From Candidatus Thorarchaeota archaeon (GTDB taxonomy: Archaea > Asgardarchaeota > Heimdallarchaeia > Hodarchaeales > Hodarchaeaceae): DNA of 32,000 nt. Where the stretch lies: positions 30,001-62,000 of the forward strand of contig JBHLRO010000018.1 of assembly GCA_048882505.1 (NCBI GenBank), written 5' to 3'. Of the stretch, positions 3,146 through 24,286 are shown in pieces (the first letter of the stretch is position 1; each line of letters starts with the position of its first letter). The notes beneath the pieces were generated by a model. It was not told the DNA's origin. It made no database searches and worked only from the letters and a program-made list of their open reading frames with translations. Position numbers and translations under genes: made by a program.

Positions 3146-4057
3146 ATGGGTTATCATAAAAAACCGAAAGTTAATCTTACTAAACTCCGGCTTTTCCGTG
3201 TGTTCGTTCAGGGTGTTATGTTTTTACTCCTAAATTTGACTTTTTTTTCTATTGGAGCAACTTGGTTAGTTCTTCCTGTGGTAATGCCTCGAGCTCTGTT
3301 TACTACCAGTGAGGGAGCTTTTGATCTCCTACAACGGATGTTAACAATGGCTATTGTTCCGTTAGTTCCACTCGCCGTGTTTTTGATCATCGGTGCGCTA
3401 GTCGGTCGAATGTTTTGCGCGTGGGCATGTCCAATTGGACTTGCCCAAGACTTGGTTGGATTTGCCACCACCTGGAAAAGGAAGTACGAACCTACTCGTG
3501 AAACCAATTTGAATCTACGTCAAATAGGAGAATTCATAACAGGAGCTACTTTGTTGATTTCGATCTTTATCGGGATTAATGTTGGACTTGGAAACACAGC
3601 TGAAGTAGAAGATGCCTTTGGTTTCTTTGCTTATCAACCCTGGACCCTTTTAAGTCCCGCAACCTTCTTGTTTGTCATAATTCCCGGTCTTTTCTATTGG
3701 GGGGGAATTAGTAACCTCTTGGTTTGGGAACAGCTCGTCCTTATTGACATCATATTTTGGATTCGATTAGCGATCTTCGTATTTGCCTTCATTCTCGTTA
3801 TTTATGTACCGAAGGGTTGGTGCAGATGGTTCTGTCCAGTGGGAATCATCATGGGGTATTTGGCAAAACATTCGATTGTTGGGGTTGGTAGAAATGTCAC
3901 AAAATGTACACACTGCGGTTGGTGTGAAGACGTATGCCCCACAGGGGTACGTGTGCTTGCACATCCTCCAGAAAGGGTGAGATCCGAGCAGTGTATCAAT
4001 TGTTTGGATTGTATTGCGGTCTGTCCTGATGATGCCATGGAACTAAAGCTTTTCTAA
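3146..4057 (+). CDS. Membrane-bound 4Fe-4S protein of NapH/MauN/RdxA (quinol dehydrogenase-like) family
   Basis: Two CxxxCP motifs ('FCAWACPIG', 'WCRWFCPVG'), two C-terminal CxxCxxCxxxCP ferredoxin motifs and several TM segments. ATG 3146 follows SD-like AGGTG (3134-3138) and is preferred over GTG 3107. Confidence 0.88.
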   Translation: MGYHKKPKVNLTKLRLFRVFVQGVMFLLLNLTFFSIGATWLVLPVVMPRALFTTSEGAFDLLQRMLTMAIVPLVPLAVFLIIGALVGRMFCAWACPIGLAQDLVGFATTWKRKYEPTRETNLNLRQIGEFITGATLLISIFIGINVGLGNTAEVEDAFGFFAYQPWTLLSPATFLFVIIPGLFYWGGISNLLVWEQLVLIDIIFWIRLAIFVFAFILVIYVPKGWCRWFCPVGIIMGYLAKHSIVGVGRNVTKCTHCGWCEDVCPTGVRVLAHPPERVRSEQCINCLDCIAVCPDDAMELKLF

Positions 4058-6123: not shown

Positions 6124-7002
6124 ATGTTAAAAGAATGTCCTATTGATGTTAATAAGGAAATGAAATATCCGATTAATAATGGTGAATATCTCGTGAAAAT
6201 CGAGTTTCTTGGGGTTCCGACACCCTCTAAAGTCACAAAATTGGATCAAAACATAACATCAATTCTGCTCGATGCGTTCGAATCCAATAATTTCGTTTTA
6301 CGCGATAGGGATGTTATTATCATCGCCAGCAAGATTGTTTCTATCGCCGAAGGGGGGCAGCGGCCAATGGATTCTATTGCAGAGGTTAGCGAACGCGCAA
6401 AGGAAATTGCGTATATGGCAAAGCTGGATCCACGATTTGTCGAAACGGTTTTGCAGGAAGCGGATGACGTTTTTGGAGCCGTTCCGGGAGCTGTCCTTGC
6501 CTTACGAGATAAAGTTCTCCAAGCTAATGCCGGAGTAGATCAAAGTAATGCGGGAGGAGAGGGTTTTTTAATCGTTTTACCTAAGGATCCCGTAAAAACC
6601 GCAAAATCGATCCATGATGAGATTTATGCTCGTACAAGAAAAAAAGTGGGGATAATTATTTCGGATTCGAAAACCCACCCCCTGAGACGAGGCACATCAG
6701 GTTTTGCCCTCGCAGTTGCGGGATTTAGTCCGATTATTGATGATCGTGGATCTTTAGACCTTTTTGGACGTTCGATGAGGATAACATCTCGTGCTATTGC
6801 GGACAATCTCGTGTGTGGTGCCGAAATACTCATGGGCGAGTCCGCGCAACAGGTACCTATTGTAATTGCTCGGGGATGCGATGAACTTTCCTTCCATAAA
6901 GGGAAGGTAGATGAGTACGAAAACAACCAACAGATGAAGATGGATCCGGAATTGTGTCTATATATGGGTCCATTATGGTATTCTCGAAAAGAAGAAGGGT
7001 AA
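6124..7002 (+). CDS. cofE: CofE/COG1478 family gamma-glutamyl ligase (F420-0:glutamate ligase or FolC2-like)
   Basis: 'DVIIIASKIVSIAEG', 'ANAGVDQSN', 'IIISDS', 'RRGTSGFAL' and 'DLFGR.MRIT..AIADNL'. Confidence 0.88.
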   Translation: MLKECPIDVNKEMKYPINNGEYLVKIEFLGVPTPSKVTKLDQNITSILLDAFESNNFVLRDRDVIIIASKIVSIAEGGQRPMDSIAEVSERAKEIAYMAKLDPRFVETVLQEADDVFGAVPGAVLALRDKVLQANAGVDQSNAGGEGFLIVLPKDPVKTAKSIHDEIYARTRKKVGIIISDSKTHPLRRGTSGFALAVAGFSPIIDDRGSLDLFGRSMRITSRAIADNLVCGAEILMGESAQQVPIVIARGCDELSFHKGKVDEYENNQQMKMDPELCLYMGPLWYSRKEEG

Positions 7003-7017
7003 TTGAGGTTGAAATAG

Positions 7018-7869
7018 GTGTTGATTGAAGGGACGCTTGGTGGTAAACCCCTAGGCGATAAGGAACCTACCCAAATTATGGGTGTAATTAATCTATCTCC
7101 TGGTTCGTTTTTCAAGGGGAGCGTGAAAACCTCAAAATCTGAGATTGGCTCTCAAATATCAAAGATGATTGAGGCTGGCGCAGACTTCCTAGATGTTGGG
7201 GCGATCTCCAGTGCCCCCACGTTTTTATACCAGGGATCAGATATTGTCTCGGAATCAACAGAGCGAGAGCGTCTATCTAAGTTCTTTGATGCCTTCAATG
7301 ATGTTGGCGAGGAAATACCTGTGTCAATAGATACCCAATCTGCTGAAACCGCAGAATACGCCCTCTCGAAGGGAGCCACCATCATTAATGACATCTCCGG
7401 GTTTAAAAGCGATCAGCGTCTTCCAACCGTAATTGCAGATCATCAAGCCTCAGCAATAGTCATGTCATGCCGGGATAAACCAGGAGATGTTTATGTTATG
7501 CCAAAAATCCTGTTAGAACTACAAAACAGTCTAAATATTGGACAGAATGCGGGTATTCCTGATTCTAAGATGGTTGTGGATCCTGGCCTGGGCGGGTGGG
7601 TACCAGAGCGTGAAATTGAGGCGGATTATAATATTCTCAAGGATTTACCTGAAATGAGATCTTTGGGTCGCCCTATCTTGCTTGGAATTAGTCGAAAGTC
7701 ATTTATAGGCAAAGTATTGAACGAGCCACCAGATGGACGACTTTCTGGATCTTTAGCGGCAACAGCAATTGGAGTCTCACTTGGTGCACATATTATACGC
7801 ACCCATGATGTGAGAGAGACCAAAGATGCTTGTAAAGTTGCGTTTTTATTAAAACAATACAGTTTATAG
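7018..7869 (+). CDS. folP: Dihydropteroate synthase
   Basis: 'IMGVINLSPGSF', 'SIDT', 'INDISG', 'DPGLG', 'GISRKSFIG' and 'IRTHDV'. Confidence 0.93.
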   Translation: MLIEGTLGGKPLGDKEPTQIMGVINLSPGSFFKGSVKTSKSEIGSQISKMIEAGADFLDVGAISSAPTFLYQGSDIVSESTERERLSKFFDAFNDVGEEIPVSIDTQSAETAEYALSKGATIINDISGFKSDQRLPTVIADHQASAIVMSCRDKPGDVYVMPKILLELQNSLNIGQNAGIPDSKMVVDPGLGGWVPEREIEADYNILKDLPEMRSLGRPILLGISRKSFIGKVLNEPPDGRLSGSLAATAIGVSLGAHIIRTHDVRETKDACKVAFLLKQYSL

Positions 7870-7895
7870 GGATTTTTCTGAGCGAGGCTTTCCAA

Positions 7896-8294
7896 TTGGA
7901 TGAAAAACTCGAATTCCTTGCCAATCAAAAACTTCTTCACCTAGCTACAATGGATAAAGACGGTCATCCCCATGTAGTTCCCGTCTGGTATCAATATGTT
8001 CATGGAAAACTTTACATTGGAAGCCATACGCGTACAAAAAAAGTAAAAAACATCCTAAATGATCCACGCATTAGTTTTTGTGTGGATGTTGGCATCCGTG
8101 CCCCCATTTATGGTGTTATGGGAGTTGGAGATGCTCATATACTGCTGGATAATAAGCGTGTTGTTTCAATTGCAGAGCAGATCCTCCTTCGCTATTTCGA
8201 TACCCTTAAGCATCCAAATGCGGCGGAGATCCTAGCTGATACAAATTGTGTCATTGAAATCACCCTACACTCAATTGTCTCATGGAAATACTGA
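7896..8294 (+). CDS. Pyridoxamine 5'-phosphate oxidase family (split beta-barrel flavin/F420-binding) protein
   Basis: 'LATMDKDGHPHVVPVWY' and 'KVKNILNDPRISFCVD'. Confidence 0.88.
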   Translation: MDEKLEFLANQKLLHLATMDKDGHPHVVPVWYQYVHGKLYIGSHTRTKKVKNILNDPRISFCVDVGIRAPIYGVMGVGDAHILLDNKRVVSIAEQILLRYFDTLKHPNAAEILADTNCVIEITLHSIVSWKY

Positions 8295-8472
8295 ATGCTC
8301 ATAGGCTCATCTCAATAAGAGATGACTTATAATATCTCAAGGAGAAGTAAAAAACAACGAAGGTACCGGAAAGTACATAGTAATAGTAACAAAACCAACC
8401 CCGTTTTCACTTAATAATAACTGGTTTCCTCGTTACTGTTGCCAAAGACGACCTTAGTGATGTGTATTAATA

Positions 8473-9180
8473 GTGACCAACCTAGATGAATTTTTCGGTG
8501 AAGATCAAGACCGAAACGTGCAAATTTTAGTTGAAATGACAAAAAAATTCTTCTTGTTCGTCTCTCAATTGGCAGAAATTACCGAAGAGCTCGATGCGAA
8601 GGTAAACACACTTAATGCGAGGTTGGATGCCCTTGGTTCAAGTCCCTCAAGGGTAATAACTCAAACAACAAGTGCGCTATCTCCTTCAGTTGCTTCACCA
8701 GTTCCACCTAGCCCTGGTATGGGAGGATCTACACCATCACCTGCACCCCCTTCTGCTAAAATTGCACCACCACCCACGCCTGCAGTTTCAACTTCATCCC
8801 CACCCCCTGTTCCCTCCATGGGAGGAACTGCCCCCCCACCTCCACCTTCTTCAGGGAGCGGAGGCTCAGGTTTTCCGTCTCCTCCCACTCTTCCTTCAAG
8901 TTCGCCAGCACAGCCTACGTCCCCATCTCCTCCATCTGGTCTACCACCCTTGCCAGGGTTTGGTCAATCCACAAGTCCCACAAGTCCCGCTTCGACCTTT
9001 CCCCCTCCCCCTGGTCTCACTCCTCCTAGTTCTGGGCCTCCAGGTGCTGTTCCTCCATCACAACCGCAAGCTCCTGGTTCTCCTGCTCGTATGTCTCCCA
9101 TGGCTCTAAAAGCCCAGATGAATGACGAACTAAGGGCCGCTTTTGCAAGAATTAAGAAGAATTGGGATGATGAGGATTAA
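8473..9180 (+). CDS. Proline-rich protein with N-terminal coiled coil and C-terminal helix plus W-acidic tail (WAVE/WASP-like architecture, hypothetical)
   Basis: Residues ~18-54 form an amphipathic coiled coil, the central region has about 50 Pro, and the C-terminus is 'MALKAQMNDELRAAFARIKKNWDDED'. The coding status is well supported; the function is inferred. Confidence 0.75.
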   Translation: MTNLDEFFGEDQDRNVQILVEMTKKFFLFVSQLAEITEELDAKVNTLNARLDALGSSPSRVITQTTSALSPSVASPVPPSPGMGGSTPSPAPPSAKIAPPPTPAVSTSSPPPVPSMGGTAPPPPPSSGSGGSGFPSPPTLPSSSPAQPTSPSPPSGLPPLPGFGQSTSPTSPASTFPPPPGLTPPSSGPPGAVPPSQPQAPGSPARMSPMALKAQMNDELRAAFARIKKNWDDED

Positions 9181-9320
9181 CTGCACATCATTGCGCTAAT
9201 CACCTTTTTCAATTGAGAGTGGCTGTTCCTACTGATGTTTTTCGCGAATATCTGAGAGGATGCATTTTCTAATACAATCCGTCAAGTACCTCCATTTAAT
9301 CTGAAAAACATATCTTTTTA

Positions 9321-10292
9321 TTATTTCATGGCGCCATACAAAAGGTTAGCTAAGGTCCGTAGGTTTCCCACTCCCCGAATTTCATGTTCATACATCTTGA
9401 TCTCTGAAATTTCGTATTCATTGTACAATTCATGGATTTTTGCTAATGTTTCATTCTGATTGGCAAAACGGGCCGTACAATAAGCACAATGAGGATTCTC
9501 TGGTTGAACCTGGTTGATATAGATTTTGGAGATCGGAAAGGCTACTTCGTATAATGCCTTGATAAGACGCTCCGTTTCCCATAAGGCCATTATTGTTGGT
9601 ATCGTGACTGCCACGAACTCTGCTTCTTGAGGATTTTGCAGATGCTCACGGGCAAATTCTACTTGATCTCGTAGTTCCTCCAATTTTTCAAAAGCTTCTT
9701 TTTCGCTTGGTCCCGATCCCCCTCCAAAAAACGCTTTCATACCAGTCATTATTCCCCCGAGGCGTTTTCGCATTTTAATTAGTCTAAACAGCCATGTCTG
9801 AGTCATTTCAGGGAGTTGTAACAATCTAAGGGTATGTCCGGTCGGAGCTGTATCAAAAATGATGGTATCAAACTCAGGGTTTCTAATGAATTCAAGAAGT
9901 TGGATAAAGGCGACTGTTTCATCTGCACCGGGAGGAGACAAGGTAGAGGGGTCATCACTTCCAAGAAGATCGGAAATAAGCCCTGATGGATCTTGTTGTG
10001 ATACAATATCAGAATAAGAACGCATTGCATTTTGAGTATCTAGTTCAATCGCTTGAAGTCCAGAGACTCCCGTGACTTCAGTATATGTATCACCTCCGAT
10101 TTGTTGGTTTAAGCTGTCCGACACAGAGTGCGCGGGATCCGTAGAAACAAGAAGAGTGCGAATTCCCAAATCGGCAGCCTTAATAGCAGTGGCGGCAGCC
10201 ATGGTAGTTTTTCCAACTCCTCCTTTGCCGCCAAAAAAAAGAAATTTCTTCTCAAATAACGAAGATGACCTATGAGATGACATGAGTCGCAT
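9321..10292 (-). CDS. get3: Get3/TRC40 (ArsA-family) ATPase, single-domain
   Basis: 'GGKGGVGKTT', 'STDPAHS', 'PGADE', 'DTAPTGHTLRLL', a Met/Gly-rich insert, and C-terminal 'CAYC' followed by 'HELY'. Confidence 0.88.
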   Translation of the reverse strand: MRLMSSHRSSSLFEKKFLFFGGKGGVGKTTMAAATAIKAADLGIRTLLVSTDPAHSVSDSLNQQIGGDTYTEVTGVSGLQAIELDTQNAMRSYSDIVSQQDPSGLISDLLGSDDPSTLSPPGADETVAFIQLLEFIRNPEFDTIIFDTAPTGHTLRLLQLPEMTQTWLFRLIKMRKRLGGIMTGMKAFFGGGSGPSEKEAFEKLEELRDQVEFAREHLQNPQEAEFVAVTIPTIMALWETERLIKALYEVAFPISKIYINQVQPENPHCAYCTARFANQNETLAKIHELYNEYEISEIKMYEHEIRGVGNLRTLANLLYGAMK

Positions 10293-10327: not shown

Positions 10328-11035
10328 TTGATAACTAAAGAAAAAAAGACTACTGAAACGCAGATTAAACGGCTTCGGGTGATGAAGAAAATGCGATCTT
10401 ATCAATTTTATCTCCTCGCAATACTAGGCATTGCGTTTGTAGCACTCATTTGCTTATCTACCATAATAAATCCAATTACATTTTCAACTACTGCCCAACC
10501 AACCGTAATGCCATCAGGGAACAATATTGCCTCGAAGATCTCGAAGGAGTATCCTGCTCTAATTGCCACGAAGTCGATTGATAAGACCGAGGTCACTTTA
10601 GGGGAGACAATAATTGTGACGGTTATTATTCGAAACTTCGGAAATCAAACAGCCTATAATGTCACATACATTGAAAGATTCTCAAATCCATGGATTTTTA
10701 ACACCACAGGATTAGGTAAACTTTCTTACACACAGATTGGTCCCAGTGAAACGCGAGTGTTCGGTTATTCTATCACTGCCAACGCGATCGGGAAATTTAG
10801 TATACAGGCTGCCGCTATTGAATATTATGATTCTGAAACCAACGCGATCAGATTCATTACATACACGAATTCGTTAGAAATCACAGCCATGGAGCCCCCT
10901 GAAGATTTTTCTATAGCAAACTTTTATGCAGCCCTCATCCTACTGATTACACTTATTATGATTGATGTTATGCTTTTAATTCGTCTAGTTGCTCCTAAAT
11001 TCAATCGTAGAGAACAACAGGCCAATAATTTTTGA
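10328..11035 (+). CDS. Membrane-anchored Ig-fold protein, TRAP-beta (SSR2)/DUF11-like
   Basis: N-terminal hydrophobic helix, Ig-like 'LIATKSI...GETIIVTVIIRNFGNQTAYNV...IGPSE...IGKFSIQAAAIEY', then a C-terminal TM and basic residues. The true start may be ATG 10391, which follows GGTGA. Confidence 0.7.
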   Translation: MITKEKKTTETQIKRLRVMKKMRSYQFYLLAILGIAFVALICLSTIINPITFSTTAQPTVMPSGNNIASKISKEYPALIATKSIDKTEVTLGETIIVTVIIRNFGNQTAYNVTYIERFSNPWIFNTTGLGKLSYTQIGPSETRVFGYSITANAIGKFSIQAAAIEYYDSETNAIRFITYTNSLEITAMEPPEDFSIANFYAALILLITLIMIDVMLLIRLVAPKFNRREQQANNF

Positions 11036-24164: not shown

Positions 24165-24286
24165 TTTACTCTCTCTTTATAATTAAATTGGATATTTTAG
24201 CATGTTTCTGGGTATATTTATCCAAAGGCCTTCATAAATTTATTGTTTTACCTTTCGAACGGCTGTGTTTTCCTGGTAACTTGACA

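What the first reader, a model, noticed from the sequence alone, without database searches (positions are those of the whole stretch)
8473..9180. Archaeal protein with complete WAVE/WASP-type nucleation-promoting-factor layout
Seen: a 235-aa ORF ordered as N-terminal coiled coil, then ~150 aa with about 50 prolines, then an amphipathic basic helix, then terminal WDDED. Established: eukaryotic WAVE, WASP and WASH share the order N-terminal complex-assembly helix, polyproline, WH2/C helix, and acidic tail with a conserved Trp that activates Arp2/3. Asgard archaea have actins and profilins. Inference: this could be a minimal prokaryotic ancestor or analogue of Arp2/3 activators, or an actin/profilin-recruiting scaffold. 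I know of no described archaeal NPF with all four parts.
Basis: partly seen in the sequence, partly recalled or inferred. Interest (0 to 1): 0.9.

Follow-up and report, generated by a model that had tools for sequence, protein, structure and literature searches.

The report
Asgard coiled-coil, polyproline, basic-helix protein
This gene is a real, conserved small protein of Hodarchaeales (Asgard archaea) built from a pairing helix, a long proline-rich tether and a conserved end helix; that makes it an untested candidate actin/profilin scaffold closer in design to Ena/VASP than to WAVE/WASP, and the genome has no Arp2/3 complex for it to activate.

Summary
Window 8473-9180 (+) encodes 235 aa: an N-terminal helix (residues 12-55), 50 prolines within residues 58-205, a C-terminal helix (209-233) and the ending WDDED.

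The gene is single-copy in all 23 Hodarchaeales genomes searched. Both ends and an SGLPPLPG motif are conserved.

The WAVE/WASP reading is only an analogy:
- Pfam and PDB sequence searches gave no WH2, WAVE, WASH or BRK1 match.
- The Trp is confined to one genus. Sister lineages have I, A or F there.
- The genome has one actin, no Arp2 or Arp3 paralogue and no ARPC2. It has only ARPC4-like genes.

The protein is the Hodarchaeales form of an unannotated Asgard-wide family. A profile of another Asgard lineage hits 261 of 400 genomes, and its best hit in four Hodarchaeales genomes is this gene. In that lineage the C-terminal motif resembles the F-actin-binding block of human VASP: 13-15 bits against a background maximum near 9. 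For the Hodarchaeales form alone the likeness is only indirect (2.8 bits).

The genome's profilin is a close relative of heimProfilin (PDB 6YRR), which is reported to bind polyproline.

This scan has found the same family before in other Asgard genomes.

The parts
8473..8505 (+). Start codon (GTG) and N-terminal acidic/aromatic cap, M-x-N-L-D-E-F-F-G-E-D (residues 1-11). D5, F8 and nearly always F7 are conserved across the order.
   Evidence: AF2 predicts a short helix at 2-7. Equivalent caps are EEFEWAL in family f31 and AEEFxSFL in f20.
8506..8637 (+). Long heptad helix, residues 12-55, the presumed oligomerising coiled coil. It holds the conserved core VTKKFF-x-FVSQLAEI.
   Evidence: AF2 helix 12-55 with block pLDDT about 79-89. 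Heptad register with 10 of 13 a/d positions hydrophobic. hhalign against the f31 family gives 95.6% probability, E 1.1e-8. PDB hits are only generic coiled coils.
8638..9096 (+). Disordered Pro/Ser/Gly/Thr-rich tether, residues 56-208, with 50 Pro. PPP(+) runs lie at residues 99-101, 110-112, 121-125 and 177-180.
   Evidence: This is the second most proline-dense ORF in the six-frame translation of the genome.
8869..8886 (+). Conserved proline motif 1, G-F-P-S-P-P (residues 133-138). The order-wide pattern is G-[FL]-P-[TSAP]-P-P.
   Evidence: Alignment A4 has invariant P135, P137 and P138. Coordinates.
8935..8958 (+). Conserved proline motif 2, S-G-L-P-P-L-P-G (residues 155-162). It is near-invariant in the genus (S-[GNSP]-L-P-P-L-P-[GN]) and reads GLPPPPG in the sister family.
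   Evidence: Local pLDDT rises to about 65. Coordinates checked against the sequence.
9097..9171 (+). C-terminal helix, residues 209-233, with a basic end (ARIKK). The family motif is L-[KRQ]-x-Q-[ML]-x-x-E-L-[KR]-x-x-[FL]-x-[RK]-x-[KR].
   Evidence: AF2 helix 209-233. Conserved across the order. A profile built from Loki-type tails scores genus members 9.8-17.1 bits against a background maximum of 9.3. The target's own tail scores 6.1.
9163..9180 (+). Tail W-D-D-E-D plus the stop codon. The Trp is specific to the genus. An acidic ending is common to nearly all Hodarchaeales-type members; metagenomic P0034 ends KKKFDK.

Best explanation
SHOWN. The ORF encodes the Hodarchaeales representative of an unannotated protein family found across Asgard archaea. 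The family plan has four parts:
- a short acidic/aromatic N-terminal cap;
- a heptad helix of about 45 residues;
- a disordered low-complexity tether;
- a conserved C-terminal helix with a basic end.

The Hodarchaeales form stands out in three ways. Its tether is long, about 150 residues with 50 Pro in the target. It carries two conserved proline motifs, G[FL]P[ST]PP and SGLPPLPG. An acidic ending follows the basic helix, and in this genus that ending carries a Trp.

INFERRED mechanism. The N-terminal coiled coil oligomerises the protein, so several tethers hang from one hub. The proline motifs recruit a reader of polyproline helices. The best candidate in this genome is its profilin, a close relative of the Heimdallarchaeota LC3 profilin that binds a PPPAPPLP peptide in vitro. 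The C-terminal helix docks on a second partner, and the candidate is actin. That idea rests on the likeness of the family's tail, in another Asgard lineage, to the F-actin-binding block of Ena/VASP.

On this reading the protein is a minimal Ena/VASP-like factor with permuted domain order and no EVH1 domain. It would deliver profilin-actin to filaments or bundle them. It would not activate Arp2/3. Family membership is well supported (about 0.9). The actin/profilin mechanism is a hypothesis, and the confidence below refers to the mechanism.
For: Conservation:
- The gene is in 21 of 21 genus genomes and 2 of 2 sister-family genomes, single-copy apart from a 48-aa N-terminal fragment in G018, with conserved ends and motifs.

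Family link:
- hhalign of the Hodarchaeales alignment against the f31 alignment gives 95.6% probability, E 1.1e-8.
- The f31 profile hits 261 of 400 Asgard genomes.
- Its best genome-wide hit in four Hodarchaeales genomes is this gene, at E about 1e-6.
- Loki-type tails (SP-x-SLRGAIMGELKELFAKRKK) align without gaps to the Hodarchaeales tail. Their profile scores genus members 9.8-17.1 bits against a background maximum of 9.3.

VASP likeness:
- Human VASP FAB is 259[20 protein letters not shown]278 (PMC10340426).
- It scores 15.5 bits against the all-Asgard tail profile and 13.1 against the f31 profile.
- The best non-self window in 4.52 million six-frame residues of this genome scores 9.4 and 9.3. 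VASP GAB scores negative.

Partners present in the genome:
- One actin, at 440 bits to Pfam Actin.
- Two gelsolin-domain genes.
- One profilin: Pfam 24.2 bits and E 1.6e-35 to PDB 6YRR. 6YRR is heimProfilin, whose N-terminally truncated form binds a VASP polyproline peptide with KD 0.30 mM (PMC8410842).

Context: the target is one of the two most proline-dense ORFs in the genome. As of 2022 the Asgard filament-nucleation machinery was still described as undiscovered (PMC9433394).
Against: - No binding was shown or modelled.
- The VASP-FAB likeness is weak for the target's own lineage: 2.8 bits with the Hodarchaeales-only profile and 4.7 with the Loki-type profile, both below background.
- The likeness is short and was noticed after the fact, so it may be convergence or chance.
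- The target's helix plus tail has net charge -1, against +4 in the other lineages. That is unfavourable for binding acidic F-actin.
- No Pfam WH2 or other actin-binding family matches.
- No actin, profilin or gelsolin gene lies within 9 kb of the family gene in 20 loci from three Asgard families. In Hodarchaeales the neighbours are folP and get3.
- heimProfilin binds polyproline only weakly, with sub-millimolar to millimolar KD.
- Coiled-coil composition can inflate profile-profile scores.
- In one Loki-type genome the whole module is fused to an Arf-like GTPase, not to an actin-binding domain.
Confidence: 0.38

Rival explanations
1. It is a multivalent adaptor with no actin role. The coiled coil oligomerises, the proline motifs bind some other reader of polyproline helices, and the C-terminal helix binds a trafficking, GTPase or membrane-associated partner. 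On this view the likeness to VASP is convergent.
For: In a Loki-type genome the whole module (cap, coil, linker, basic helix) is fused to the C-terminus of an Arf/Rag-like GTPase (L152: Arf 78 bits, Gtr1_RagA 71 bits). A Ras-family GTPase gene lies about 3 kb from the f31-type gene in 11 loci of that family. No actin-related gene is nearby in 20 loci. No actin-binding Pfam family matches.
Against: No alternative partner was identified. I did not search the genome for SH3, WW, GYF or EVH1 domains. Synteny with the GTPase is seen within one family only and may just reflect relatedness. The f31 tail still scores well above background against VASP FAB.
Confidence: 0.33
2. It is a WAVE/WASP-type nucleation-promoting factor or its ancestor. 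The basic helix plus the Trp-acidic tail would act as a CA element that activates an Arp2/3-like complex.
For: The order coil, polyproline, basic helix, acidic tail with Trp is real in this genus. Nearly all Hodarchaeales-type members have an acidic ending after the basic helix. Two ARPC4-like ORFs exist in the genome.
Against: The genome, 94.55% complete, has one actin and no Arp2/Arp3-like paralogue at tblastn E<=10, and no ARPC2 (the Pfam control rang nowhere, so this is weak on its own). The Trp is replaced by I, A or F outside the genus. There is no WH2. There is no sequence likeness to WAVE, WASH, BRK1 or Abi chains in PDB. Family members in f15, f19, f20 and f31 end in KRKK-type basic clusters without the Trp-acidic ending.
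Confidence: 0.04
3. It is a membrane-tethered proline-rich protein. The C-terminal helix would lie in the membrane interface as an amphipathic basic anchor, and the coil and tether would project from the membrane.
For: Basic C-terminal helices anchor many prokaryotic cytoskeletal proteins (general knowledge). The tail sits C-terminal to an Arf-like GTPase in one fusion. A Trp stands next to a Lys cluster in the target.
Against: Hydrophobic moments are low: 0.28-0.31 for the Hodarchaeales helix and 0.08-0.10 for the Loki- and f31-type helices on the Eisenberg scale. The net charge of the target's helix plus tail is -1. There is no signal peptide or transmembrane segment in the sequence.
Confidence: 0.1
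4. It is a GET-pathway accessory protein, with a Get5/Mdy2-like C-terminal dimerisation helix, working with the adjacent Get3 ATPase.
For: The gene is convergent with a Get3/ArsA gene (277 bits), and this arrangement is kept across the genus. Pfam MDY2_C matches the tail of 2 of 12 orthologues weakly, at 12.8 and 15.4 bits.
Against: Those scores are far below the 25-bit cut-off. Ten other orthologues do not match, although several of them have the same helix. The genes converge, so they are not co-transcribed. In the sister family the neighbours are different: archease and an acyltransferase-like gene in one genome, a MoxR-like ATPase and S8e in the other (by eye). There is no ubiquitin-like domain.
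Confidence: 0.03

Closest known systems
Ena/VASP proteins (EVH1, proline-rich region, then EVH2 with GAB, FAB and a tetramerising coiled coil)
   Same: Both combine an oligomerising coiled coil, a proline-rich region with profilin-type motifs (PPLP, GPPPP) and a short helix ending in a basic cluster. In the f31 lineage the family's tail (GGMMGELKALLAARRRKA) matches human VASP FAB ([20 protein letters not shown]) at 9 of 18 positions without gaps, by my count. VASP FAB scores 13-15 bits against the family profiles, with background near 9.
   Different: The order is permuted, with the coil at the N-terminus rather than the C-terminus. There is no EVH1 domain, no WH2-like GAB and no Pfam VASP_tetra match. 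The target's own tail is only indirectly similar to FAB (2.8 bits) and is followed by an acidic ending with Trp. Homology is not established and function is untested.
WASP/WAVE/WASH nucleation-promoting factors (VCA module)
   Same: The gross order is N-terminal assembly helix, polyproline, amphipathic basic helix, acidic tail with Trp. This applies to this genus only.
   Different: There is no WH2 and no WHD, WH1 or WAHD1 likeness. The Trp is not conserved in the order. The acidic residues follow the Trp rather than surround it. The genome has no Arp2, Arp3 or ARPC2.
Unnamed Asgard family of small coil, low-complexity linker and basic-helix proteins (annotated only as 'hypothetical protein'; Loki-type f20 and f31-type members)
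   Same: They share the cap, the coil core, the linker and the C-terminal E-L-K-x-x-[FL]-x-[KR] motif. Detection is reciprocal by profile.
   Different: The Hodarchaeales members have a much longer tether richer in Pro, Ser and Thr, with an LPPLPG motif in place of GGPP repeats (f20) or Ala-rich linkers (f31). They also have an acidic ending, with Trp in this genus, in place of a purely basic end.
Formin FH1 regions
   Same: The repeated unit [GL]-P-P-(P)-L-P-G resembles FH1 profilin-binding tracks. This is recalled from general knowledge and was not tested.
   Different: There is no FH2 domain or any other fold in the protein.

Membership tests
WASP/WAVE/WASH NPFs | WH2 (V) motif that binds G-actin | tested here: not met
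   Pfam WH2 (PF02205) searched over the whole genome at E<=10 does not hit this locus. hmmscan of 12 C-terminal pieces at E<=10 gives no WH2.
WASP/WAVE/WASH NPFs | Acidic tail with a conserved Trp (A region) after a C helix | tested here: not met
   W231 is conserved in every genus tail I examined. The sister family has I or A there, and metagenomic relatives have I and F. Members in f15, f19, f20 and f31 lack the Trp-acidic ending.
WASP/WAVE/WASH NPFs | Family-specific N-terminal domain (WAVE WHD/SHD, WASP WH1, WASH WAHD1) | tested here: not met
   The N-terminal profile against all PDB sequences at E<=10 finds only generic coiled coils. Pfam scans of 13 N-termini at E<=10 list no WAVE, Abi, BRK1 or WH1 family.
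WASP/WAVE/WASH NPFs | An Arp2/3 complex in the same organism to act on | tested here: not met
   There is one Pfam Actin match and no actin paralogue by tblastn at E<=10. There is no ARPC2 (but the control genomes gave no signal). Two ARPC4-like ORFs are the only Arp2/3-related genes found. ARPC1, ARPC3 and ARPC5 were not searched. The genome is 94.55% complete.
WASP/WAVE/WASH NPFs | Stimulates Arp2/3-dependent nucleation | not testable with these tools
   This needs biochemistry.
Ena/VASP | EVH1 (WH1) domain | tested here: not met
   The whole protein has no Pfam family at E<=0.1. The only folded elements are two helices.
Ena/VASP | Proline-rich region with profilin-type motifs | tested here: met
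   50 Pro in 148 residues. Runs APPPPPS and FPPPPG are present, as are the conserved motifs GFPSPP and SGLPPLPG. Binding itself was not tested.
Ena/VASP | GAB (WH2-like G-actin-binding block) | tested here: not met
   Human VASP GAB scores -0.4 to -3.6 bits against all four tail profiles. No WH2 was found.
Ena/VASP | FAB (F-actin-binding block, [15 protein letters not shown]) | tested here: inconclusive
   VASP FAB scores 15.5 bits (all-Asgard profile) and 13.1 (f31 profile) against background maxima of 9.4 and 9.3. It scores only 2.8 (Hodarchaeales-only) and 4.7 (Loki-type), both below background.
Ena/VASP | C-terminal tetramerisation coiled coil | tested here: not met
   A coiled coil exists, but at the N-terminus. 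Pfam VASP_tetra is not among the matches at E<=10. The oligomeric state is unknown.
Asgard coil, linker, basic-helix family (unnamed) | Homologous N-terminal cap plus coiled-coil core | tested here: met
   hhalign gives 95.6% probability, E 1.1e-8. The f31 profile's best hit in four Hodarchaeales genomes is this gene, at E about 1e-6. The reverse search finds f31, f20 and f19 members at E 1e-3 to 3e-5.
Asgard coil, linker, basic-helix family (unnamed) | C-terminal E-L-K-x-x-[FL]-x-[KR]-x-[KR] helix at the very end of the protein | tested here: met
   Ungapped alignment across lineages. The Loki-type tail profile scores genus members 9.8-17.1 bits against a background of 9.3. The target's own, more divergent tail scores 6.1.
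Get5/Mdy2 C-terminal dimerisation domain (PF18514) | Match over Pfam's gathering score | tested here: not met
   12.8 and 15.4 bits against a 25-bit cut-off, in 2 of 12 orthologues. The target does not match.

The most novel reading that the evidence does not exclude
This family is the missing actin-assembly factor of Asgard archaea. It would be a coiled-coil hub whose proline tethers load profilin-actin and whose end helix holds the filament, making it a functional and possibly evolutionary forerunner of the Ena/VASP EVH2 module. In Hodarchaeales, the archaea reported (recalled, not checked here) to be closest to eukaryotes, the added acidic ending with Trp and the long LPPLP-rich tether could be a further step towards eukaryote-style VCA or polyproline regulators.
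Probability: 0.2. Interest if true: 0.9.

Novelty: new variant of a known kind. Interest (0 to 1): 0.62.

Why it matters
Asgard archaea have eukaryote-like actin, profilin and gelsolin. No filament nucleator or elongation factor has been identified for them, and a 2022 paper states that such machinery is still to be discovered (PMC9433394).

Polyproline binding by an Asgard profilin has been shown only with a borrowed animal VASP peptide (PMC8410842). The natural ligand is unknown.

This gene offers a concrete, small and easily expressed candidate ligand from the lineage of that profilin's close relative, with defined motifs to mutate. If it binds profilin and actin, polyproline-guided actin assembly would date to before eukaryogenesis. 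If it does not, the family is still one of the most widespread uncharacterised small proteins specific to Asgard archaea, and it has a link to small GTPases.

Tried and rejected
The single job was counted and gave no verdict. I did not try to get round this with another tool.
- Expression. No RNA holder was listed for window 8300-9300.
- Protein Atlas. The search by features with the N-terminal 58 residues gave no usable hit. The structure matches to a single helix are meaningless.
- Library-wide profile search with the N-terminal alignment. Beyond the family it returned mostly repeat-rich coiled-coil proteins. Two useful relatives came out of it, P0022 and P0034.
- False positives of the N-terminal profile in other Asgard genomes. 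By eye these are V-ATPase subunit D-like and GrpE-like ORFs and long coiled-coil proteins. A second hit in sister-family genome G022 (C58) is a Ser-rich coiled coil without the tail.
- Genomic context. No conserved neighbour across families; only within-family synteny.
- Get5/MDY2_C lead: sub-threshold and inconsistent.
- ScpB chain 1t6s matched the N-terminal profile at E 0.07. I treated this as chance.
- Motif ideas recalled from memory and checked only by eye. The ESCRT MIM1 spacing does not fit the tail. A PIP-box (L4, F7, F8) or FFAT-like reading of the N-terminal cap was not tested.
- Membrane-helix idea: hydrophobic moments are low.
- Literature. Searches for the family's motifs and for Asgard together with EVH2, nucleator or WH2 found no description of this family.
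- Gelsolin-fusion lead from earlier notes of this scan: not seen in this genome's two gelsolin genes and not searched elsewhere.
- One search was a mistyped script with no result.
Full report
WHAT IS THERE

Window 8473-9180 (+) is an open frame of 235 codons that starts with GTG, the first start codon after an in-frame stop. Orthologues begin at the same residue with ATG or TTG, so the start is sound. The protein has 51 prolines, 50 of them in residues 58-205. The rest of that stretch is mostly Ser, Gly, Thr and Ala.

AlphaFold2 on a 16-sequence alignment predicts a short helix at 2-7 and a long helix at 12-55 (block pLDDT about 79-89). Residues 56-208 are disordered, with a small confidence bump at the SGLPPLPG motif. 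A C-terminal helix spans 209-233 (pLDDT about 80). The long helix keeps a single heptad register, with 10 of 13 a/d positions hydrophobic. The protein ends IKKNWDDED.

THE ORGANISM AND ITS ACTIN TOOLKIT

The window is contig C18:30001-62000 of a 4.3-Mb, 83-contig genome that is 94.55% complete. Database relatives of the protein are labelled Candidatus Hodarchaeales or Hodarchaeota.

The genome encodes:
- one eukaryote-like actin, at 440 bits to Pfam Actin, with no second actin-like gene by tblastn even at E<=10;
- one profilin, at 24.2 bits to Pfam Profilin and E 1.6e-35 to PDB 6YRR;
- two gelsolin-domain genes;
- two ARPC4-like ORFs;
- no ARPC2 (that search rang in no control genome, so it is weak on its own).

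So there is an actin-profilin-gelsolin system, but no Arp2, Arp3 or recognisable Arp2/3 complex.

CONSERVATION

The gene was found in all 21 other genomes of the genus and in both genomes of the sister family of the same order. It is single-copy apart from a 48-aa N-terminal fragment in one genome.

Across the order the conserved parts are:
- the N-terminal cap, x-x-x-[LI]-D-x-F-F;
- the coil core, VTKKFF-x-FVSQLAEI in the genus;
- two proline motifs, G-[FL]-P-[TSAP]-P-P and S-G-L-P-P-L-P-G (GLPPPPG in the sister family);
- the C-terminal helix, S-x-x-S-L-[KRQ]-[AS]-Q-[ML]-x-x-E-L-[KRH]-x-x-[FL].

The Trp is not conserved. It is present in every genus tail I examined, but the sister family has I or A at that position. 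Two metagenomic relatives have I and F. An acidic ending after the basic helix is common to nearly all Hodarchaeales-type members; P0034 ends KKKFDK.

Within the genus the gene lies between folP and a convergent Get3/ArsA gene. In the sister family the neighbours are different, so the context gives no functional hint.

TESTS OF THE WAVE/WASP READING

- The whole protein has no Pfam family at E<=0.1.
- A profile of the N-terminal 60 residues, run against every PDB chain sequence at E<=10, finds only generic coiled coils: GCN4, Lpp, coronin and designed helices. It finds no WAVE, Abi, BRK1/HSPC300 or WASH-complex chain.
- A profile of the C-terminal 36 residues finds nothing.
- Pfam WH2 searched over the whole genome at E<=10 does not touch this locus. 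Scans of 12 tails and 13 N-termini at E<=10 list no NPF-related family.

Taken with the non-conserved Trp and the missing Arp2/3, an Arp2/3-activating role is unlikely. I put it at about 0.04.

A WIDER FAMILY

A library-wide search with the N-terminal profile recovered two more distant relatives with the same plan, P0022 and P0034. P0034, read by eye, repeats the tail-like helix internally.

Searching 400 Asgard genomes with the N-terminal profile gave weak but recurrent hits to small ORFs in other families. Read through, these ORFs have the same architecture:
- Family f31: cap EEFEWALQDP, coil, Ala/Pro linker, tail GGMMGELKALLAARRRKA.
- Families f20, f19 and f15: cap AEEFxSFL, coil, GGPP/PPPPP linker, tail SP-x-SLRGAIMGELKELFAKRKK. 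Relatives of the f20 type are labelled Lokiarchaeota or Promethearchaeota, all as 'hypothetical protein' with no Pfam domain.

The link to the target is supported by three results:
- hhalign gives 95.6% probability, E 1.1e-8, over 52 N-terminal columns.
- The f31 profile hits 261 of 400 Asgard genomes. In four Hodarchaeales genomes its best genome-wide hit is exactly this gene, at E about 1e-6.
- A tail profile built only from Loki-type members scores Hodarchaeales genus tails 9.8-17.1 bits and f31 tails 17.5-21.8. The best of 4.5 million background residues scores 9.3.

The target's own tail is the most divergent of its genus and scores 6.1. Tail profiles of Hodarchaeales and f31 do not detect each other directly; the Loki-type tails bridge them. 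Coiled-coil composition may inflate the N-terminal scores. Even so, the shared position, cap, linker and tail make common descent the simplest reading (about 0.9).

THE VASP LIKENESS

While reading the f31 tails I recalled the F-actin-binding block of Ena/VASP. I checked it in the literature: human VASP FAB is 259[20 protein letters not shown]278 and GAB is 223-APGLAAAIAGAKLRKVS-239 (PMC10340426).

| Tail profile | VASP FAB (bits) | Best non-self background window (bits) |
|---|---|---|
| All-Asgard | 15.5 | 9.4 |
| f31 only | 13.1 | 9.3 |
| Hodarchaeales only | 2.8 | 8.7 |
| Loki-type | 4.7 | 9.3 |

GAB scores negative against all four profiles. The background is the six-frame translation of this genome. 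The likeness is therefore real for one lineage of the family and only transitive for the target. It is short and was picked after the fact, so convergence cannot be excluded.

Ena/VASP is still the closest known design, since it combines polyproline, a basic actin-binding helix and an oligomerising coiled coil. The family differs from it in several ways. The order of parts is permuted. There is no EVH1 domain and no GAB. In the target an acidic ending brings the net charge of helix plus tail to -1, against +4 in the other lineages.

PROFILIN

PDB 6YRR is the Heimdallarchaeota LC3 profilin. Its N-terminally truncated form binds a VASP peptide containing PPPAPPLP with KD 0.30 mM, and the full form binds with KD 3.3 mM (PMC8410842).

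This genome's profilin aligns to residues 24-147 of that chain. It therefore corresponds to the truncated, better-binding form. The natural proline ligand of that profilin is unknown.

The target is one of the two most proline-dense ORFs in the genome. The other combines a zinc-ribbon-like CxxC motif, a proline-rich stretch and a coiled coil. This makes profilin a reasonable candidate partner, but it is inference only.

EVIDENCE POINTING ELSEWHERE

- In a Loki-type genome the entire module is fused to the C-terminus of an Arf/Rag-like GTPase. This confirms part of a lead from earlier notes of this scan.
- I saw no gelsolin fusion.
- No actin, profilin or gelsolin gene lies within 9 kb of the family gene in 20 loci from three families.
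- A non-actin adaptor role, for instance in GTPase or trafficking pathways, is therefore nearly as likely as the actin role.
- A membrane-anchor role for the tail is not favoured, because hydrophobic moments are low.
- A Get5-like reading rests on sub-threshold Pfam matches in 2 of 12 orthologues.

WHAT COULD NOT BE DONE

No RNA run holds the locus.

EARLIER WORK IN THIS SCAN

After I had reached the VASP reading, look-ups showed that this scan has reported the same family several times in other Asgard genomes, with the same closest-known assignment. The present window adds three things:
- the Hodarchaeales form, with its long LPPLP-rich tether and acidic tail carrying Trp;
- the measurement that its FAB likeness is only indirect;
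- the link to a profilin lineage with published polyproline binding.

VERDICT

The gene is a new, lineage-specific variant of an undescribed Asgard family whose nearest known design is Ena/VASP. Function is untested. Interest is 0.62.

Noticed in passing
window 9321-10292 (-) and 10328-11035 (+): A Get3/ArsA-type ATPase (277 bits) lies head-to-head with a TRAP-beta-like membrane protein (38 bits). The order folP, target gene, get3, TRAP-beta is kept across the genus but not in the sister family.
   Followed up: partly
G000:C83:1134-1421 (+) and G000:C30:34128-34415 (-): Two ARPC4-like ORFs of about 153 aa match positions 68-162 of Pfam ARPC4 at 34-39 bits. The genome has no Arp2 or Arp3 paralogue and no detectable ARPC2.
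   Followed up: partly
G000:C20, + strand, stop-to-stop frame of 299 codons starting near nt 24,250: This is the most proline-dense ORF of the genome. It has a zinc-ribbon-like CxxC motif, about 130 residues with PPPP and PPLP motifs, and a C-terminal coiled coil. It is another possible profilin or polyproline-reader ligand.
   Followed up: no
L152:529-1812 (+) (G165:C115): A 428-aa protein in a Loki-type genome has an Arf/Rag-like GTPase domain followed by the family's whole module. The module runs from a cap-like ADYALTDP, through the coil and a short linker, to the tail VLSELKNLFDKKKS.
   Followed up: partly
L003:1498-1866 (+) (G000:C4:87134-87502): The genome's profilin starts at the position of residue 24 of the heimProfilin chain 6YRR. 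This supports the internal ATG that the authors of that structure considered as a possible true start.
   Followed up: partly
L048:1492-1635 (-) (G018:C162): A 48-aa fragment copies only the N-terminal cap and coil core of the family, in addition to the full gene in the same genome. It is probably a remnant of a duplication.
   Followed up: no
G122:C457:2851-3168 and 3336-3587; G123:C202:85-399 and 602-925: In family f15 the family gene occurs as a tandem pair.
   Followed up: no
P0034 (metagenome contig L081:219-830): A 203-aa relative has the same cap and coil but a proline-poor middle. That middle holds, by eye, two internal copies of the tail-like helix, one of them WH2-like (ELRGVLRGGSPKLMTV). 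The protein ends KKKFDK. Its organism is unknown.
   Followed up: no
window 6124-8294 (+): A CofE/F420-ligase-like gene, a pterin-binding enzyme (folP-type) and a PNPOx-like gene sit in a tight co-directional cluster just upstream of the target.
   Followed up: no
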